Virus record (IMG/VR): IMGVR_UViG_3300032237_001118
Span: 1-58,394 of that record
DNA length: 58,394 nt
Source of the DNA: a virus
Taxonomy: Duplodnaviria > Caudoviricetes
Strand: one strand, 5' to 3'
In this document: one piece after another, positions 26,116 through 46,014 of the stretch
How the letters are laid out: each line of letters begins with the position of its first letter
How positions within the stretch are numbered: position 1 is the first letter of the stretch
Made by a program: the position numbers and the translations under genes
The notes under the pieces: model-generated
Seen by the model: only the letters and a program-made list of their open reading frames with translations
Databases searched by the model: none
Told to the model about the DNA's origin: nothing

Positions 26116-26403
26116 TTATACGTCAAATCTTACATAAGTTTTAAAAGAACATTCAGGAAAAAAATATACTAAAGCGTCTTGGATTAATACGTCGGCAAGT
26201 TGTCTATCCATATGTTGTTCAGTAATCACATCACCAAGAATAATAACAGCCTCCATTAAAATTGTTTGATTAGTAACAGAAAAATTGAGATTGTGAATTT
26301 TGATGTAAGACCCTTTACCATACATTTCTTGTACGGCTCCACCTTGATAATCGTTGATATAGTTTTCGATTAGGCGAAACAATCTTCTTTTCTTATCTAA
26401 CAT
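26116..26403 (-). CDS. Hypothetical protein
   Basis: 95-aa ORF. Confidence 0.65.
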   Translation of the reverse strand: MLDKKRRLFRLIENYINDYQGGAVQEMYGKGSYIKIHNLNFSVTNQTILMEAVIILGDVITEQHMDRQLADVLIQDALVYFFPECSFKTYVRFDV

Positions 26404-26440
26404 GATAAAAAATATAAGGTTTAAATGAAAAATTTACAGA

Positions 26441-26572
26441 TTATCGACCTTGGCCTCTGTAGTTTCTTTCTTTACGGTCATTTTTGTTATGACTCTTTTG
26501 AGCCTTACCTGTACCCTTTTTTCCAAAAGAAACTTTATTTGAATTTCCTGCTGATTTTGAACCTTTTGCCAT
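26441..26572 (-). CDS. Small basic protein ending YRGQGR (43 aa, not in ORF track)
   Basis: MAKGSKSAGNSNKVSFGKKGTGKAQKSHNKNDRKERNYRGQGR; TATTTAT upstream on the minus strand. Confidence 0.75.
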   Translation of the reverse strand: MAKGSKSAGNSNKVSFGKKGTGKAQKSHNKNDRKERNYRGQGR

Positions 26573-26650
26573 GTCTTATTTTTATCAAATAAATAGTTTG
26601 GCAGAATAAAAAAAGTTCCGTACATTTGTATTCACAAAACGATAAACGAT

Positions 26651-26905
26651 ATGACTAAAGAAAAACTATACAGAAGTGTTAATGGTGACTACCTTTACTT
26701 GTTTAATTGGATTGGTGGTGGTTTTAATGATGTGTGGGCTCCAAATAAAAAAGAAGCTTATCTTCGTGTTATTAAAGAAAGAAAAGATGCTGAATTAAAG
26801 TATCCAAAGAATGCAAAGTTAAGACCTGATTATAAGTCAATGCGTAAGTGTACGTATTCCCAATATCAAGAACAAAATAAATTGGGTTGGATGTTGTCGA
26901 TGTAA
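26651..26905 (+). CDS. Hypothetical protein
   Basis: 84-aa ORF after a TACATTTG promoter motif. Confidence 0.7.
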   Translation: MTKEKLYRSVNGDYLYLFNWIGGGFNDVWAPNKKEAYLRVIKERKDAELKYPKNAKLRPDYKSMRKCTYSQYQEQNKLGWMLSM

Positions 26906-26924
26906 AATGTTTTTTATATCTTTG
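26893..26924 (+). promoter_or_regulatory. Bacteroidota-type promoter 1 of RNA cluster
   Basis: GTTG-N20-TATCTTTG. Confidence 0.65.
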
Positions 26925-26928
26925 TAAA

Positions 26929-26976
26929 AGAGTTTGGAACTTATAGGTAATGAAAGATACTCGGTATCCAAACTTT
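26929..26976 (+). ncRNA. Candidate ~50-nt structured small RNA
   Basis: AGTTTGGA/TCCAAACT closing stem and GATAC-TCG-GTATC hairpin directly after a promoter; no ORF. Confidence 0.4.
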
Positions 26977-26985
26977 AAAAAAAGA

Positions 26986-27038
26986 TTTGACGGTTTAAAA
27001 AAATCTTCTTATCTTTGTGAAACAAAAGTTCTTTAAAA
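26986..27038 (+). promoter_or_regulatory. Bacteroidota-type promoter 2 with boxA-like element
   Basis: TTTG(26986)-N20-TATCTTTG(27010), then AAGTTCTTTAAAA resembling the rRNA-leader boxA. Confidence 0.75.
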
Positions 27039-27043
27039 TATAT

Positions 27044-27133
27044 GGTTGTGGTAGCTCAGGAATCTTTCGGGATTCGCGGTAGAGCAATTATCTGAACAGT
27101 AATGTGCCGTTGGTTCGACTCCAATCCCAACCA
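27044..27133 (+). tRNA. Non-canonical tRNA-Phe(GAA)-like RNA with UUCG hairpin inserted in the D-loop
   Basis: Acceptor GGTTG(T)GG/CCCAACC; D stem GCTC/GAGC; insert GAATCT-TTCG-GGATTC; anticodon arm ATTAT-CTGAACA-GTAAT; T arm GTTGG-TTCGACT-CCAAT. Confidence 0.75.
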
Positions 27134-27185
27134 CGAAAGTCCTCCGAATTAAAGACGTTTTATTTTCGGAATTTTCATTAAAAGA

Positions 27186-27217
27186 TTTGGAAGGTATTAA
27201 AATCTTTCTTATCTTTG
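27186..27217 (+). promoter_or_regulatory. Bacteroidota-type promoter 3 of RNA cluster
   Basis: TTTG-N20-TATCTTTG; flanks similar to promoter 2. Confidence 0.75.
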
Positions 27218-27225
27218 TAAAAGAA

Positions 27226-27522
27226 ATGGACAGCGGAATGTTTTTTAGTGGTGGTTCCCCATACTCACCCGAACATCTTTCTTCTCCGCATTACAAATTA
27301 GAAAAATGTTAAATAAAACACGGGCGGTTGTGTGGAATGTTCTCCCTGTCTGACCTTAATCAGACTAAAACAACGGGTCTTTTTGGATGTTTTGGATTAG
27401 AACTAAAACAGGAGTTTGTCCGACTTTATGGGTGTTGATGGTTTACCCTACCTAAAGAAGAACCATATACTTTTTCCCTGACGGGGGATTTTGAGGGAGA
27501 CGCGACGGTGTCTCCCTTTTTT
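27226..27522 (+). ncRNA. Candidate ~300-nt multi-helix structured RNA ending in an intrinsic terminator
   Basis: GC-richer than flanks, no long ORF, at least 7 hand-identified helices; terminator AGGGAGAC/GTCTCCCT plus T run at 27493-27522. Confidence 0.6.
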
Positions 27523-27554
27523 TGTTTGTTTTATATTTATAAATAAAACAAAAC

Positions 27555-28553
27555 ATGGCAACAGCAACACCTTTCGCATATAATACAGGAGGAACAATTC
27601 CTGGAACACAACAAGTTGGAAATTTATCGGTTGGAGTACCAACATCAGGATTTACAAGTAGTCCACAATTTTGGAATGGGCCTGATGAAGAATTAGGTTA
27701 TGTTATCGCAATTCCTGTTTCAGGAGGAACTCAACCAACACCAATTTCAGGAGTAACTGCGTCTCTTGGTTTTTATAGGTCAACAGGATTGACTGACAGT
27801 TCTTTCATTAATTTAACAAATAGCCTTTTCAGTCAAAGTTTTTCATCTGCAACTGAAGCCAGTATATGGTTAACAAACAATGGTTATTGGAACTCATATA
27901 TTACACCTGTTTTATATTTGGATGCGGGTAATCCATCAAGTTATCCAGGTACAGGAACTGTTTGGACTGATTTGATTGGTGGAAAAACATTCAACTTAAT
28001 TAACGGACCTGGATATGACCCAACAAATGGTGGTAAATTTTATTTTTATGCTGCAGGTGGCCAATACGCCAATTGTTCAACAAGTTTACAATCATTACCA
28101 ACATTTACAATATCTGTTTGGCATAATTGGGATGGTAATAATACTGGAGGAGAACCTTGTATATTAACTGAAGTTTACCCTGGTAATACAGGAGCAATCA
28201 ATTATATTTTAGGAGCTCCACAAGGAATAACAACTATTGCTGGATACTTTGCATCTGGATTTCAACTCTCAAATTCATTTAGCTTAACACCAAACACTTG
28301 GTATAATATTGTTGTTACTTGTGACGCAAGCCAATTGGTTACAGTTTACCTTAACGGAACGACATATGGTTCAGTAGGAACAGCAGGTGCTCAACCATCT
28401 TCAAGTCAAGGAGGAATAAATTTAATGAGAAGATGGGATAATCCTGAATTCTGGGGAGGGTATTTGGCAACCGTTGGAATATATGATAAAGCACTAACTC
28501 AATCTCAAGTTTCATCAATTTTTAACTTAACCAAATCAAGATTTGGGTTATAA
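27555..28553 (+). CDS. LamG/concanavalin A-like domain putative virion protein
   Basis: LYLDAGNPSSYPGTGTVWTDL, WYNIVVT, VGIYDKALTQSQV; N-terminal domain resembles that of 53597-56995. Confidence 0.82.
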   Translation: MATATPFAYNTGGTIPGTQQVGNLSVGVPTSGFTSSPQFWNGPDEELGYVIAIPVSGGTQPTPISGVTASLGFYRSTGLTDSSFINLTNSLFSQSFSSATEASIWLTNNGYWNSYITPVLYLDAGNPSSYPGTGTVWTDLIGGKTFNLINGPGYDPTNGGKFYFYAAGGQYANCSTSLQSLPTFTISVWHNWDGNNTGGEPCILTEVYPGNTGAINYILGAPQGITTIAGYFASGFQLSNSFSLTPNTWYNIVVTCDASQLVTVYLNGTTYGSVGTAGAQPSSSQGGINLMRRWDNPEFWGGYLATVGIYDKALTQSQVSSIFNLTKSRFGL

Positions 28554-28907: not shown

Positions 28908-30068
28908 ATGCGAGGTTTTATTAAAACATTATTAAAAGAACAAGAGGATAAGTATGATACTTTAGCTATGCTTAGAGATTATCAAGGAAGTAACAGCAAG
29001 TTGAAAGATTTAAGTTTAGAGTTGAGAGTAAAAGGTAAATTATCTAATACAAAGATTAAAGAAGCTATTACTCAATTTAAAAAAGAATTCTACGAACCAA
29101 CCATATTAAGTAGCCTACAGTTTAACAAACAAATGCAATCCCTTATCATGGATTTGGGTACTAAAGCTTATAACGATATTCTCAGAAGTAATAAAAGATT
29201 CCTGTTAAAAGATTTGAATAAAATTAAAATTGGAACACCTGAGAGAGAATGGATGAACAGAAATGTTAGTGATTTAAGATTCTTTAAGAAACATATTACC
29301 GATACGGACGAAAAGTTTAATTTTCCCGATAGAGACGAAAAAGTTAGCATATCAGATGAAGTTACCAATTTATTAAAATTGTTGGTTAAACGAGACTTTT
29401 GGGGGTTTATTGAGGGTAATGAATGGTCTATTCTTAATAAGATTAACACCAATTATACTAATTGGAGTAAATTGATTGCAAAGAGAGATAAAGAAGGTGA
29501 TTTAGGTGATAACAGTGGACCAAAAGACAAAGTAATGAATTACTTTAAACAAAGACCTGTTGAAGAAATTCATGATTTATCTGAATTTGATGAAGACCAA
29601 AAAAAAATAATTAAAACAAAAGTTCCTACTTTAAGTTTTGCAGATGAAGATATTATAACAATATTAAGAGCTGCGGATAGTCCAGATAGTGATTACGATT
29701 TCAATAAAATGAGGAATAGAATCATGAGCACAACAGATAGGGGTGATAACACTGAAAATGATTTCATTGCGTGGTTACTTTATAATGAAATTCCTGAGTC
29801 TGATATTAGAGTATTCTCATCCTATGGTAATCTTGTGGATATTACTTTCCAATGTGACCTAATGGTTAAACTTAAAGACAAATGGGTTCCAATTCAAGTT
29901 AAGAGCTCAGAAAAAACAACAAGTTCAAAATTATTAAACTATGGTATTGGTGGTATTTTAGTTTATCCTGCTCCTAAAAAGATAAAATGTGGAAAATGGG
30001 TATATCTTACAGGAACATCACTACCAAAAGACTTTGACGAAGATTTTTTAAATTTGCATTGTCAATAA
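28908..30068 (+). CDS. Protein with LLKE leader and C-terminal PD-(D/E)xK-like nuclease motif
   Basis: RGDNTE...VDITFQCDLMV...PIQVKS. Confidence 0.55.
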   Translation: MRGFIKTLLKEQEDKYDTLAMLRDYQGSNSKLKDLSLELRVKGKLSNTKIKEAITQFKKEFYEPTILSSLQFNKQMQSLIMDLGTKAYNDILRSNKRFLLKDLNKIKIGTPEREWMNRNVSDLRFFKKHITDTDEKFNFPDRDEKVSISDEVTNLLKLLVKRDFWGFIEGNEWSILNKINTNYTNWSKLIAKRDKEGDLGDNSGPKDKVMNYFKQRPVEEIHDLSEFDEDQKKIIKTKVPTLSFADEDIITILRAADSPDSDYDFNKMRNRIMSTTDRGDNTENDFIAWLLYNEIPESDIRVFSSYGNLVDITFQCDLMVKLKDKWVPIQVKSSEKTTSSKLLNYGIGGILVYPAPKKIKCGKWVYLTGTSLPKDFDEDFLNLHCQ

Positions 30069-30087
30069 TTTTTCGTATCTTTGTGTT

Positions 30088-30330
30088 ATGGCAATACCAG
30101 TTAATTCAAAAACACCGATAAAACCTACCAAATGGGAACACGTCTACGAGGACGAAGAAACTATATCTATTTGGAAATATAATTCAAAAATAACCATCGC
30201 AGGTCCTGTAGAAGTAGAAATTAAATATAAGAGAGGATACGTACATTCTAAACCTGTGAAGAAAAAAACGATAGGTGACTTAGCTAAAGAAGCTAAGAAA
30301 GATGCAAAATTAAAGAAGCCTAAGTCTTGA
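30088..30330 (+). CDS. Hypothetical basic protein
   Basis: 80-aa ORF after TATCTTTG. Confidence 0.65.
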   Translation: MAIPVNSKTPIKPTKWEHVYEDEETISIWKYNSKITIAGPVEVEIKYKRGYVHSKPVKKKTIGDLAKEAKKDAKLKKPKS

Positions 30331-45931: not shown

Positions 45932-46014
45932 CGGAGGGAGACGGGCTCGAACCCCCAAAGCCTTTCAGCTCAACTGTTTTCAAGACAGCATCCTCACCAA
46001 TTCGGATTCCCTCC
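45932..46014 (-). tRNA. tRNA-Ser(TGA)
   Basis: GGAGGGA/TCCCTCC acceptor, G discriminator, GCTGT-CTTGAAA-ACAGT anticodon arm, long variable arm AGCT-GAAA-GGCT, TTCGAGC T loop (one T-stem mismatch); CCA not encoded. Confidence 0.88.

What the first reader, a model, noticed from the sequence alone, without database searches (positions are those of the whole stretch)
26893..27522. Non-coding island: three tandem near-consensus host promoters, each firing into a structured RNA
Seen: about 630 bp with no long ORF in a gene-dense genome. It holds TATCTTTG boxes at 26917, 27010 and 27210; the last two have TTTG exactly 20 nt upstream and similar flanks. A boxA-like AAGTTCTTTAAAA precedes the tRNA-like RNA. 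The promoters are followed by a ~50-nt hairpin RNA, a modified tRNA-like RNA and a ~300-nt structured RNA. Inference: a highly expressed early RNA arsenal.
Basis: partly seen in the sequence, partly recalled or inferred. Interest (0 to 1): 0.8.

Follow-up and report, generated by a model that had tools for sequence, protein, structure and literature searches.

The report
Phage stable-RNA cassette with new RNA
This gene-free stretch of a freshwater phage genome is a conserved cassette of RNA genes: an odd tRNA look-alike and a previously undescribed, very abundant folded RNA of about 300 bases, made with promoter and leader signals that copy the host's ribosomal RNA genes.

Summary
Window 26906-27554 has no credible ORF. 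It carries Bacteroidota-type promoters (TTTG-N20-TATCTTTG) and three conserved RNA elements.

1. A 5' leader hairpin (26931-26974), followed by AGTTCTTTAAAA. This motif matches the boxA of Bacteroidota rRNA leaders.
2. A tRNA-Phe(GAA)-derived tRNA-like gene (27044-27133). It has a hairpin inserted in the D-loop, a bulged acceptor stem and C37.
3. A ~300-nt RNA (about 27222-27525) with its own promoter and intrinsic terminator. It has no Rfam family.

The ~300-nt RNA has about 100 distinct homologues in viral and lake metagenome contigs. Covariation supports 9 helices, several of them pseudoknotted. In four freshwater metatranscriptome studies, contigs cover this RNA at word depths up to about 1200, while the flanking genes are near zero.

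The whole cassette recurs in ~310-320 kb jumbo phages. In sister phages the same D-hairpin tRNA-like is followed by GOLLD RNA instead.

Best reading: a phage stable-RNA operon that imitates host rrn leaders and makes a new, compact RNA of the GOLLD/ROOL kind together with a non-canonical tRNA partner. Molecular function and "early" timing remain untested.

The parts
26893..26924 (+). Promoter P1: -7 box TATCTTTG (26917-26924) with an imperfect -33 element (GTTG, 26893-26896)
   Evidence: In all 19 distinct hairpin-1 copies found, a TAnnTT(T/C)G box sits at a fixed distance before the hairpin.
26931..26974 (+). Leader hairpin 1: a 7-8 bp outer stem (GUUUGGA / UCCAAAC) that encloses a conserved ~25-nt apical part, ACUUAYAGGYRAUGAAAGAUACUCGG
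   Evidence: RNAalifold on 17 sequences gives 12 pairs, 4 of them with compensatory changes. 19 distinct copies were found, all in loci that also carry the ~300-nt RNA.
26986..27017 (+). Promoter P2: TTTG-N20-TATCTTTG
   Evidence: Promoter-profile hit with E 3.6e-6. P2 is absent between the hairpin and the tRNA-like in L001, L087, L098 and L108.
27027..27038 (+). boxA-like leader element AGTTCTTTAAAA
   Evidence: One search gives the position. 22 of 24 Bacteroidota 16S leaders carry (A/G)GTTCTTTGA(A/T), mostly 90-165 nt before the 16S. 81 of 85 distinct regions upstream of the tRNA-like carry the motif, 8-19 or 54-56 nt before the tRNA-like. Background is 201 of 5000 random windows.
27044..27133 (+). 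tRNA-Phe(GAA)-derived tRNA-like RNA. It has an acceptor stem with a 1-nt bulge, a 16-nt hairpin inserted in the D-loop, the anticodon loop CUGAACA (C at position 37) and no encoded CCA.
   Evidence: Rfam tRNA 29.4 bits with a 22-nt D-loop insert. ARAGORN reads it as 'tRNA-Arg tcg', taking the insert for the anticodon arm. All 30 of 30 distinct relatives fold the insert into a 4-7 bp hairpin, from 25 distinct insert sequences.
27143..27176 (+). Terminator-like hairpin t1 (TCCGAA...TTCGGA) followed by ATTTTC
   Evidence: Read. Relatives keep a hairpin plus T-run here with different stem sequences (TCAGAT/ATCTGA, CCGAAAT/ATTTCGG, TCCAAAT/ATTTGGA). The terminator scan did not call it.
27186..27217 (+). 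Promoter P3: TTTG-N20-TATCTTTG
   Evidence: Promoter-profile hit with E 4.3e-11. Conserved before every homologue: -33 TTTG in 16 of 17 distinct copies, -7 TATCTTT(G/A) in 17 of 17.
27222..27525 (+). New ~300-nt structured RNA. Helices: P1 GGACA/UGUCC, P2, P3 hairpin (GGUGGUUCCCCAUACUCACC, 27250-27269), P4, P6, P7, P10 and P8. Pseudoknots: P2xP4 and P1xP7.
   Evidence: No Rfam family even at E <= 10. On 22 sequences, 49 pairs are 92% paired and 27 pairs carry compensatory changes, against 16.2 +/- 2.0 in shuffles (0 of 500 reach it). Cognate versus permuted duplex tests for P4, P7 and P2 give 0 of 2000 and, for P4 and P7, 0 of 1000 on 92 sequences. Metatranscriptome contigs cover 27192-27479.
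27493..27525 (+). Intrinsic terminator t2 of the ~300-nt RNA: an 11-bp stem with a GACG loop, then a T-run
   Evidence: 7 of its 9 counted pairs covary (helix 9).
27555..28553 (+). Downstream gene: a 332-aa virion or tail-fibre-like protein with a Laminin_G_3 domain
   Evidence: Pfam PF13385, E 3e-18. PHROG 'virion structural protein'. The N-terminal ~115 aa are conserved after the RNA in L001, L002, L004 and L062.

Best explanation
The island is a stable-RNA gene cassette of a freshwater Bacteroidota phage. Its relatives are ~310-320 kb jumbo phages.

Host sigma-A-type promoters (-33 TTTG, -7 TAnnTTTG) drive two products.

(a) A transcript that starts with a conserved leader hairpin and a boxA-like element and continues into a tRNA-Phe-derived tRNA-like RNA. 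This layout copies the leader of the host phylum's rRNA operons (tandem promoters, hairpin, boxA). By inference it recruits the host NusB/NusE-type antitermination machinery for fast, processive synthesis of structured RNA. The tRNA-like keeps the L-shape signatures (G18-G19, T-loop UUCGA). It also carries a helix that protrudes from the D-loop/elbow, a bulged acceptor stem and C37. It is therefore more likely a dedicated partner or decoy RNA than an ordinary decoder (inference).

(b) From its own promoter, a new ~300-nt multi-pseudoknot RNA that ends at an intrinsic terminator and accumulates to very high levels. It belongs, by context and properties but not by sequence, to the kind represented by GOLLD and ROOL. 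These are large or ornate phage RNAs beside tRNA genes, highly abundant and of unknown function. It most likely acts in trans as a stable folded RNA, possibly self-assembling or working together with the adjacent tRNA-like.

Shown: the sequence features, conservation, covariation, RNA abundance, and the linkage between the D-hairpin tRNA-like and GOLLD or the new RNA.

Inferred: Nus recruitment, a non-decoding role for the tRNA-like, and a trans-acting GOLLD-like role for the new RNA.
For: Promoters:
-.
- The consensus is documented in passages read from PMC2483708 and PMC7366714.

boxA:
- 22 of 24 Bacteroidota 16S leaders carry GTTCTTTGA-type boxA.
- The phage motif lies before the tRNA-like in 81 of 85 distinct copies, against 4% background.
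- In the relative G054, the three promoters in the stretch just upstream of GOLLD are each followed by the same motif.

Cassette conservation:
- The whole order hairpin-boxA-tRNA-like-t1-promoter-RNA-t2 is seen in about 20 viral loci.
- Among the 83 metagenome copies with at least 420 nt upstream, 74 have hairpin 1, 69 the tRNA-like and 79 the boxA-like motif by loose patterns.

Structure.

Expression:
- In 4 of 4 runs laid, from 4 studies, contigs cover only 27192-27479.
- Word depths reach 62, 1275, 1193 and 283.
- Flanking ORFs are at 0-3.
- One 262-nt contig of depth 1158 spans 27220-27477.
- Contigs from 3 studies begin at 27220.

Link to GOLLD:
- 33 of 73 related loci have a D-hairpin tRNA-like. 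Of these, 20 are followed by GOLLD and 7 by the new RNA.
- 5 of the 6 loci left open have GOLLD just beyond the held stretch.
- GOLLD/ROOL context, abundance and unknown function come from passages read in PMC5737381 and bioRxiv 2024.12.08.627333.
Against: - No sequence or covariance-model similarity to GOLLD or any Rfam family: nothing at E <= 10, and a best nhmmer E of 0.72 over 17 GOLLD regions.
- The new RNA is about a third the size of GOLLD.
- Window-type jumbo genomes carry the new RNA and also a GOLLD 56-71 kb away (5 of 5 records). The new RNA is therefore not simply a replacement for GOLLD.
- In those genomes GOLLD sits after a tRNA-Met, and no D-hairpin tRNA-like lies within the 5 kb examined.
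- Nus-factor binding is untested. Within the window alone the boxA-like motif is not enriched.
- Logan contigs cannot show true RNA ends, strand or level. The matches are relatives at 85-99% identity, not necessarily this phage.
- Cover of the 3' quarter (27480-27525) is absent or minimal.
- The tRNA-like scores just above the Rfam tRNA threshold and keeps GAA, U33 and A73, so a decoding role is not excluded.
- The host and the time of expression are unknown.
Confidence: 0.6

Rival explanations
1. The ~300-nt RNA is a cis-acting leader (a riboswitch, tRNA-sensing element or processive-antitermination element) that controls the downstream tail-fibre-like gene through terminator t2.
For: It always lies 30-40 nt upstream of a same-strand gene and ends in an intrinsic terminator. 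No promoter is visible between t2 and the ATG at 27555. The fold is complex with invariant loops, like an aptamer. The hairpin-1/boxA leader upstream could make polymerase read through t1 and t2 (inference).
Against: - It has a dedicated conserved promoter.
- Downstream genes differ among homologues: starts of the MATxTP type, MACNYYEI, MKKFF and MKDLIRK.
- The terminator stem covaries freely while the upstream conserved segments are invariant, so I saw no conserved alternative (antiterminator) pairing (by inspection).
- Depth over the RNA is hundreds to more than 1000, against 0-3 over the gene.
- No T-box or other riboswitch family matched at E <= 10.
Confidence: 0.12
2. The tRNA-like is simply a working phage tRNA-Phe that supplements host decoding. 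Its neighbours (hairpin 1 and the ~300-nt RNA) are unrelated passengers of a tRNA island.
For: It passes the Rfam tRNA threshold, with a GAA anticodon, U33, discriminator A, and G18-G19 and T-loop signatures. Relatives carry ordinary tRNA arrays at this place, for example 19 tRNAs in L041. L098 and L108 have the same gene without the D-loop hairpin.
Against: - All 30 of 30 distinct copies examined keep a 4-7 bp helix in the D-loop despite 25 different insert sequences.
- Window-type copies have a bulged acceptor stem.
- Position 37 is C in the window, and many relatives have 6- or 8-nt 'anticodon' loops of the type Y-GAAA-R (read by eye).
- The D-hairpin tRNA-like is followed by GOLLD or by the new RNA in 32 of the 33 loci that have it; the remaining locus, L012, was not evaluated.
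Confidence: 0.2
3. The RNAs are anti-defence decoys or sponges. The tRNA-like would divert a host tRNA-cleaving defence nuclease, and the abundant ~300-nt RNA would sequester a host protein.
For: The very high abundance, the tRNA mimicry with an altered anticodon loop and the accessory nature of the cassette all fit. In L064 the 84-aa gene is followed about 113 nt later by the fibre-like gene with no RNA island. Phage tRNAs that evade anticodon nucleases are known (recalled, not read here).
Against: There is no direct evidence. No defence-related partner was identified. The invariant loops of the ~300-nt RNA show no complementarity longer than 13 nt to Bacteroidota rRNA operon loci.
Confidence: 0.13
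4. The island encodes small proteins rather than RNAs.
For: Short ORFs exist: 41 and 36 aa with TTG starts on the + strand, and 65 aa with an ATG start on the - strand at 27448-27645.
Against: The alignments show frequent 1- and 2-nt indels, and conservation is concentrated in paired and loop segments, not in codon periodicity. Compensatory base-pair changes dominate. The + strand ORFs overlap promoter P3. I did not test conservation of the 65-aa - strand ORF.
Confidence: 0.02

Closest known systems
GOLLD RNA (Rfam RF02032) and ROOL RNA
   Same: Both are phage or prophage encoded, lie beside tRNA genes, have complex pseudoknotted folds, are very abundant and have no known function (passages read in PMC5737381, and bioRxiv 2024.12.08.627333). 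In sister jumbo phages GOLLD occupies the place after the same D-hairpin tRNA-like. It is also transcribed from a Bacteroidota promoter with a hairpin plus boxA-like leader.
   Different: The new RNA is ~300 nt against ~800 nt (GOLLD) and ~580 nt (ROOL). There is no sequence or CM similarity. Window-type genomes have both RNAs. Oligomerisation is untested.
rRNA-operon antitermination leader (boxB-boxA-boxC) and phage lambda nut sites
   Same: A promoter-proximal hairpin is followed by a single-stranded boxA. The phage motif AGTTCTTTAAAA is nearly the Bacteroidota rrn boxA (A/G)GTTCTTTGA(A/T). Tandem promoters also occur before a Pontibacter 16S gene.
   Different: No boxC or N-like protein was identified. 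Binding of NusB/NusE is untested. The hairpin's large conserved apical part has no counterpart that I know of. The E. coli and lambda boxA sequences are recalled, not read.
Phage-encoded tRNAs and the stable RNAs of the T4 tRNA cluster (species 1 and 2 RNAs; recalled, not read here)
   Same: Small stable RNAs of unknown role are encoded inside a phage tRNA region.
   Different: Here there is a D-loop helix insertion and a bulged acceptor stem. A much larger pseudoknotted companion RNA has its own promoter and terminator.
manA and other short phage-associated RNAs that self-assemble (bioRxiv 10.64898/2026.07.01.735769, abstract and outline read)
   Same: These show that compact natural RNAs under 200 nt can form cages or filaments, so a ~300-nt RNA is not too small for a GOLLD-like quaternary role.
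   Different: There is no sequence relation, and no assembly data exist for this RNA.

Membership tests
tRNA (Rfam RF00005) | Cloverleaf that scores at or above the family threshold | tested here: met
   29.4 bits against a gathering score of 29, model positions 1-71. This is borderline.
tRNA (canonical decoder) | D-loop of normal size (about 7-11 nt) | tested here: not met
   A 22-nt insertion in the D-loop forms a 6-bp hairpin.
tRNA (canonical decoder) | 7-nt anticodon loop with U33 and a purine at position 37 | tested here: not met
   The window loop is CUGAACA: U33 is present and position 37 is C. Relatives show 6- and 8-nt loops.
tRNA (canonical decoder) | Regular 7-bp acceptor stem; aminoacylation | tested here: inconclusive
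   There are 7 pairs only if one 5'-strand nucleotide bulges (GGTTG[T]GG against CCCAACC). The stem covaries as GGTAG[C]GG / CCCTACC in L098. Charging cannot be tested here.
GOLLD RNA (RF02032) | Match to the covariance model of the conserved 3' domain (at least 150 bits) | tested here: not met
   No hit in the window at the gathering score or at E <= 10 in 26600-27700. nhmmer with a GOLLD profile gives E > 8. The model does find GOLLD in relatives at 285-325 bits.
GOLLD/ROOL kind (by context) | Phage-borne, next to tRNA genes, large pseudoknotted fold, high abundance | tested here: met
   Size is smaller than either.
GOLLD/ROOL kind | Homo-oligomeric assembly | not testable with these tools
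   Needs SEC or cryo-EM.
rrn/nut boxA | Sequence match to the host-phylum boxA, in a transcribed leader downstream of a promoter | tested here: met
   blastn-short also pairs island positions 119-137 with rrn loci.
rrn/nut boxA | Binding of NusB/NusE and antitermination activity | not testable with these tools
   Needs biochemistry or a reporter.
Bacteroidota sigma-A promoter | -7 TAnnTTTG and -33 TTTG about 19-21 nt apart | tested here: met
   P2 and P3 match exactly; P1 has GTTG at -33. The consensus comes from passages in PMC2483708 and PMC7366714. As for the transcription start, there is only a weak hint from contigs of 3 studies that start at 27220.
T-box / other riboswitches, RNase P, tmRNA, 6S, 5S | Match to the Rfam model | tested here: not met
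   None is listed at E <= 10 over 26600-27700. ARAGORN finds no tmRNA.
Intrinsic terminator | GC-rich stem followed by a T-run | tested here: met
   27493-27518 has 11 pairs and is followed by TTTTTGTTTG. It is conserved with covariation.

The most novel reading that the evidence does not exclude
The D-loop-hairpin tRNA-Phe-like RNA is a dedicated partner (cargo, scaffold or cofactor) of phage 'ornate' RNAs. In these lake jumbo phages it is always followed by GOLLD or by this new ~300-nt RNA. The new RNA is then a miniature, independently evolved member of that functional class. Its invariant 5' GGACAG and the UGUCC loop, or its twin GACG loops, may make contacts between molecules. If so, this compact two-RNA module would be the most tractable system yet for finding out what GOLLD/ROOL-type RNAs do. 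The boxA/hairpin leader would show that phages borrow the rRNA antitermination and folding machinery to make them.
Probability: 0.3. Interest if true: 0.9.

Novelty: new variant of a known kind. Interest (0 to 1): 0.8.

Why it matters
GOLLD and ROOL are among the largest bacterial and phage RNAs with no known function. Their only consistent clue is that they lie near phage tRNA genes.

This locus adds three things:
1. A new RNA family that is much smaller, has about 100 natural variants, a well-supported pseudoknotted fold and striking abundance in lake metatranscriptomes.
2. A specific, structurally odd tRNA-like gene that is linked both to GOLLD and to the new RNA.
3. Evidence that Bacteroidota phages transcribe such RNAs from leaders that copy host rRNA operons (promoters, hairpin, boxA).

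Each point can be tested directly with in-vitro transcripts and a Flavobacterium-type reporter. The tRNA-like also shows why annotation tools misname it: ARAGORN calls it Arg, SeC, Thr, Pro or '???' in different relatives.

Tried and rejected
- No match of 26600-27700 in 50,697 GenBank phage records by blastn.
- No whole genome is held for the window.
- Single-sequence folding of the ~300-nt stretch is only weakly better than shuffles on either strand (z -1.6 on +, z -1.8 on -). Folding alone did not decide the question; comparative data did.
None is a true homologue by nhmmer at E <= 1e-3. Presence in cellular genomes therefore stays open.
- RNase P, tmRNA, T-box, 5S and 6S readings: by eye I noted resemblances (GAAAGUCC after the tRNA-like; GGUGGUUCC against the T-box core; CCCAU..CGAAC against 5S loop C). 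None is conserved in relatives or supported by Rfam. All rejected.
- A leader-trailer pairing between the boxA-like element and the t1 loop exists in the window but not in L004. Rejected (by eye).
- An inner hairpin GAUAC/GUAUC in hairpin 1 is not kept in L076. Rejected.
- Complementarity of the island to Bacteroidota rRNA operon loci: nothing beyond 11-13-nt chance-level matches, apart from boxA and the tRNA T-arm.
- Strict mutual exclusivity of GOLLD and the new RNA held within the fetched stretches but failed at genome level.
- The first regex for the tRNA-like found nothing because it was too strict; it was replaced.
- Parts of the island without RNA-contig cover (hairpin 1 and the tRNA-like in 3 of 4 runs, and 27480-27525) carry no weight either way.
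- Literature. No paper in the library holds 4 or more of: tRNA, D-loop, extra stem-loop, additional hairpin, phage-encoded tRNA, jumbo phage. The searches gave nothing on D-loop-insert or expanded-loop phage tRNAs. The boxA sequence strings I searched for were not found in PMC3177189 or PMC2800207.
Supplementary files were not requested.
Full report
**What is at the coordinates.** The stretch 26906-27554 lies between an 84-aa ORF (26651-26905, +; no Pfam or PHROG family) and a 332-aa Laminin_G_3 / virion-structural ORF (27555-28553, +). Only short ORFs of 30-65 aa overlap it. TATCTTTG occurs at 26917, 27010 and 27210. The window has 10 copies against 4.18 +/- 2.05 expected. The second and third boxes have TTTG exactly 20 nt upstream; the first has GTTG there. 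These elements are the Bacteroidetes primary-sigma consensus, -7 TAnnTTTG and -33 TTTG (passages read in PMC2483708, and PMC7366714). I built a profile from 17 distinct promoter copies that precede the large RNA in relatives. In the window it matches only 27178-27217 (E 4e-11) and 26980-27017 (E 4e-6). The window looks like phage DNA: it has endolysin-like, virion-structural and tail-fibre-like hits. It has no match in GenBank phages, and no genome is held for it.

**Known RNA families.** Rfam finds only a borderline tRNA at 27045-27132 (29.4 bits against a threshold of 29) with a 22-nt insertion in the D-loop. Nothing credible covers the rest, even at E <= 10. ARAGORN calls the same gene 'tRNA-Arg (tcg)' because it takes the inserted hairpin for the anticodon arm. 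In the Rfam register the anticodon loop is CUGAACA, that is GAA (Phe) with U33 but C at position 37. An intrinsic terminator lies at 27493-27518.

**Relatives.** The 84-aa ORF retrieved 73 IMG/VR loci. Many of them carry tRNA arrays at this place, up to 19 tRNAs in L041. Two motif scans of the viral contigs plus nhmmer gave 22 distinct homologues of the ~300-nt RNA and one divergent form (L017/L106). A 20-nt motif scan of metagenome contigs gave 108 stretches. All 108 are confirmed by nhmmer, 95 are full-length and 78 are distinct. A gapped scan of prokaryote genomes was cut at 120 rows and gave no true hit.

**The cassette is conserved as a whole**. Its order is:
- promoter;
- hairpin 1;
- A-run and AGTTCTT(T/A);
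- an optional second promoter;
- tRNA-like;
- hairpin plus T-run (t1);
- promoter;
- ~300-nt RNA;
- terminator (t2);
- a + strand gene.

Among the 83 metagenome copies with at least 420 nt upstream, loose patterns find hairpin 1 in 74, the tRNA-like in 69 and the boxA-like motif in 79. In L001, L087, L098 and L108 there is no promoter between hairpin 1 and the tRNA-like, so hairpin 1 is a 5' leader there. In L064 the 84-aa gene is followed about 113 nt later by the fibre-like gene, so the cassette is accessory.

**Structure of the ~300-nt RNA.** RNAalifold on 18 sequences predicted 45 pairs, 20 of them with compensatory changes. I counted a hand-curated structure of 49 pairs in 9 helices on 22 distinct sequences:
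- 92% of cells are paired, against 82.6% in shuffles.
- 27 pairs have double changes, against 16.2 +/- 2.0 in shuffles (0 of 500 shuffles reach this).
- The covariation score is 0.33, against 0.13 or less when partners are slid by 1-3 columns.

MAFFT does not keep helix register, so I added an alignment-free test. It compares the duplex energy of each sequence's own two strands with permuted partners. P4, P7 and P2 gave 0 of 2000 permutations as good (22 sequences). P4 and P7 gave 0 of 1000 on 92 parsed sequences out of 100 distinct ones. A J5-P6-loop contact also gave 0 of 1000, and P9 gave 5 of 1000, both with smaller effects. Relatedness inflates such tests, but many different complementary pairs occur (AACAU/AUGUU, CGUCU/AGACG, AAGAU/AUCUU, ACCUUU/AAAGGU). 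P2 crosses P4, and P1 (invariant GGACA with UGUCC in the P7 loop) crosses P7, so the fold has at least two pseudoknots. P3 (GGUGGUUCCCCAUACUCACC) and AAACACGGG are nearly invariant. The last two hairpins both carry GACG loops.

**Hairpin 1.** The outer stem covaries at 4 of 12 predicted pairs in 17 sequences, while the ~25-nt apical part is conserved. A -7 box always precedes it at a fixed distance.

**The tRNA-like.** I aligned 30 distinct copies in two sub-families.
- All 30 fold the D-loop insert into a 4-7 bp hairpin: mean -5.6 kcal/mol against -0.6 for shuffles, from 25 distinct inserts.
- Window-type copies need a bulged nucleotide in the acceptor 5' strand.
- The loop always holds UGAA or CGAA, but with 6-, 7- or 8-nt loops (read by eye).
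- G18-G19 and the T-loop are kept, so the extra helix should project from the elbow (inference from tRNA architecture).

**boxA.**
- In 22 of 24 Bacteroidota 16S leaders with at least 200 nt upstream, taken from the genomes searched, a motif (A/G)GTTCTTTGA(A/T) lies mostly 90-165 nt before the 16S. In the leaders I read, a hairpin precedes it in Pontibacter and in a Saprospiraceae genome, and tandem TAnnTTTG promoters precede it in Pontibacter.
- The window's AAAAGTTCTTTAAAA (core 27027-27038) differs at one position. One host leader (L286) has the same A.
- The motif is present in 81 of 85 distinct regions upstream of the tRNA-like, at 8-19 or 54-56 nt. Background is 201 of 5000 windows.
- Within the window alone it is not enriched.

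The inference is an rrn-type, NusB/NusE-dependent leader. This is untested.

**Expression.** 24 RNA runs from 11 studies hold small shares of the stretch's sampled words. I laid four runs from four freshwater studies on 26400-28000, counting matches at 85% identity or more.
- Contigs cover essentially only 27192-27479.
- Peak word depths are 62 (X1), 1275 (X2), 1193 (X3) and 283 (X5).
- The flanking ORFs are at 0, or 1.5-3 in X2.
- The hairpin/tRNA-like part is covered only in X2, at about 3-4.
- One 262-nt contig of depth 1158 spans 27220-27477. Contigs of three studies begin at 27220, a few bases after the -7 box.

Contigs cannot prove ends, strand or level, and these are relatives at 85-99% identity. 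Even so, depth of this size confined to the RNA gene is not what DNA carry-over gives.

**Link to GOLLD.**
- Rfam on six relatives found GOLLD (RF02032, 285-312 bits) downstream of the D-hairpin tRNA-like in L024 and L032. A profile of these hits finds GOLLD in 22 of the 73 loci and not in the window.
- Of the 33 loci with a D-hairpin tRNA-like, 20 are followed by GOLLD and 7 by the new RNA. The other 6 had less than 700 nt held downstream. 5 of 5 of those tested have GOLLD about 0.9 kb further on; L012 was not tested.
- In L007, GOLLD has its own Bacteroidota promoter, a small hairpin and CGTTCTTAGAAA before it.
- The two RNAs are not exclusive. 5 of 5 window-type records (four of them 100% complete at 317-321 kb) carry one copy of GOLLD, and the 4 of them that I searched each carry one copy of the new RNA, 56-71 kb away.
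- In those window-type records, a tRNA-Met and three promoter-plus-boxA-like units precede GOLLD in G054, and no D-hairpin tRNA-like lies within the 5 kb examined in G054 or G051.
- 0 of 5 GOLLD-type genomes (96-100% complete) have a BLAST-detectable copy of the new RNA. The positive control gave 4 of 4.
- The new RNA's profile does not match GOLLD regions (best E 0.72, 17 regions).

**Reading.** The island is a stable-RNA cassette that borrows the architecture of host rRNA leaders. It makes a non-canonical tRNA-Phe-like RNA and a new, abundant, pseudoknotted ~300-nt RNA. In context and properties the new RNA falls in the GOLLD/ROOL kind: phage RNAs near tRNA islands, very abundant, function unknown, forming RNA-only cages (passages read; the abstract read shows that short RNAs can also assemble). 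It is not a member of either family. Rival readings (cis leader of the fibre gene, ordinary tRNA-Phe, decoy or sponge, small proteins) are weighed in their own sections. 'Early' expression, Nus recruitment, charging and assembly are all untested.

**Limits.** Paper supplements were not consulted. No covariance model of the full RNA was built, because its length exceeds the calibration limit. The host is unknown.

Noticed in passing
window 45932-46014 (-): A second tRNA found by Rfam (30.2 bits) with a long variable arm and an anticodon loop that reads UGA (Ser). ARAGORN did not report it.
   Followed up: no
L007 3780-4020; L017 4390-4630: A conserved stretch of about 240 nt, closed by CUGUGAUAAG...CUUAUCACAG, lies between the D-hairpin tRNA-like and GOLLD in L007, and before the divergent ~300-nt RNA in L017. 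Rfam gives no match for it in L017 at the gathering score. It may be another unnamed structured RNA.
   Followed up: no
L007 3600-3690; L017 3415-3500: The sequence looks like a circularly permuted tRNA: the T-arm and 3' acceptor part come first, then the D-arm, and the two ends pair like an anticodon stem. It lies directly before the D-hairpin tRNA-like (by eye only).
   Followed up: no
L024 3411-3503; L032 3403-3496; L034 3408-3501; L045 3961-4054 and 5557-5644; L007 3411-3505: A second family of 88-94-nt tRNA-like genes with the ends AGTCAGG...CCTGACTAC and extra internal hairpins. ARAGORN names them Cys, Pro or '???'.
   Followed up: no
L004, L062 and L105, between hairpin 1 (or the promoter) and the tRNA-like: An extra promoter-driven unit of about 90 nt (GAAAUYGGGAGGACAGUAAAAAUGUACCUGAAG...AAAUCCCRAU) is inserted in the cassette.
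   Followed up: no
L017 3657-4300: An ORF that looks like a GIY-YIG homing endonuclease lies inside the tRNA region, flanked by tRNA fragments. This is by eye; no Pfam search was run.
   Followed up: no
window 30053-30088, also 8772 and 4975: TATCTTTG -7 boxes end only about 4-5 nt before predicted start codons (for example the box at 30076-30083 and the ATG at 30088). This suggests leaderless or near-leaderless mRNAs.
   Followed up: no
window 27448-27645 (-): A 65-aa ATG ORF on the opposite strand overlaps terminator t2 and the start of the 332-aa gene. Its conservation was not examined.
   Followed up: no
L064 3253-3365: In this relative the 84-aa gene is followed after about 113 nt by the fibre-like gene, with no RNA island. 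The cassette is therefore accessory.
   Followed up: partly
hairpin 1 loop (26957-26962) and P3 of the large RNA (27261-27266): Both conserved elements contain AUACUC. Whether they share a ligand is unknown.
   Followed up: no
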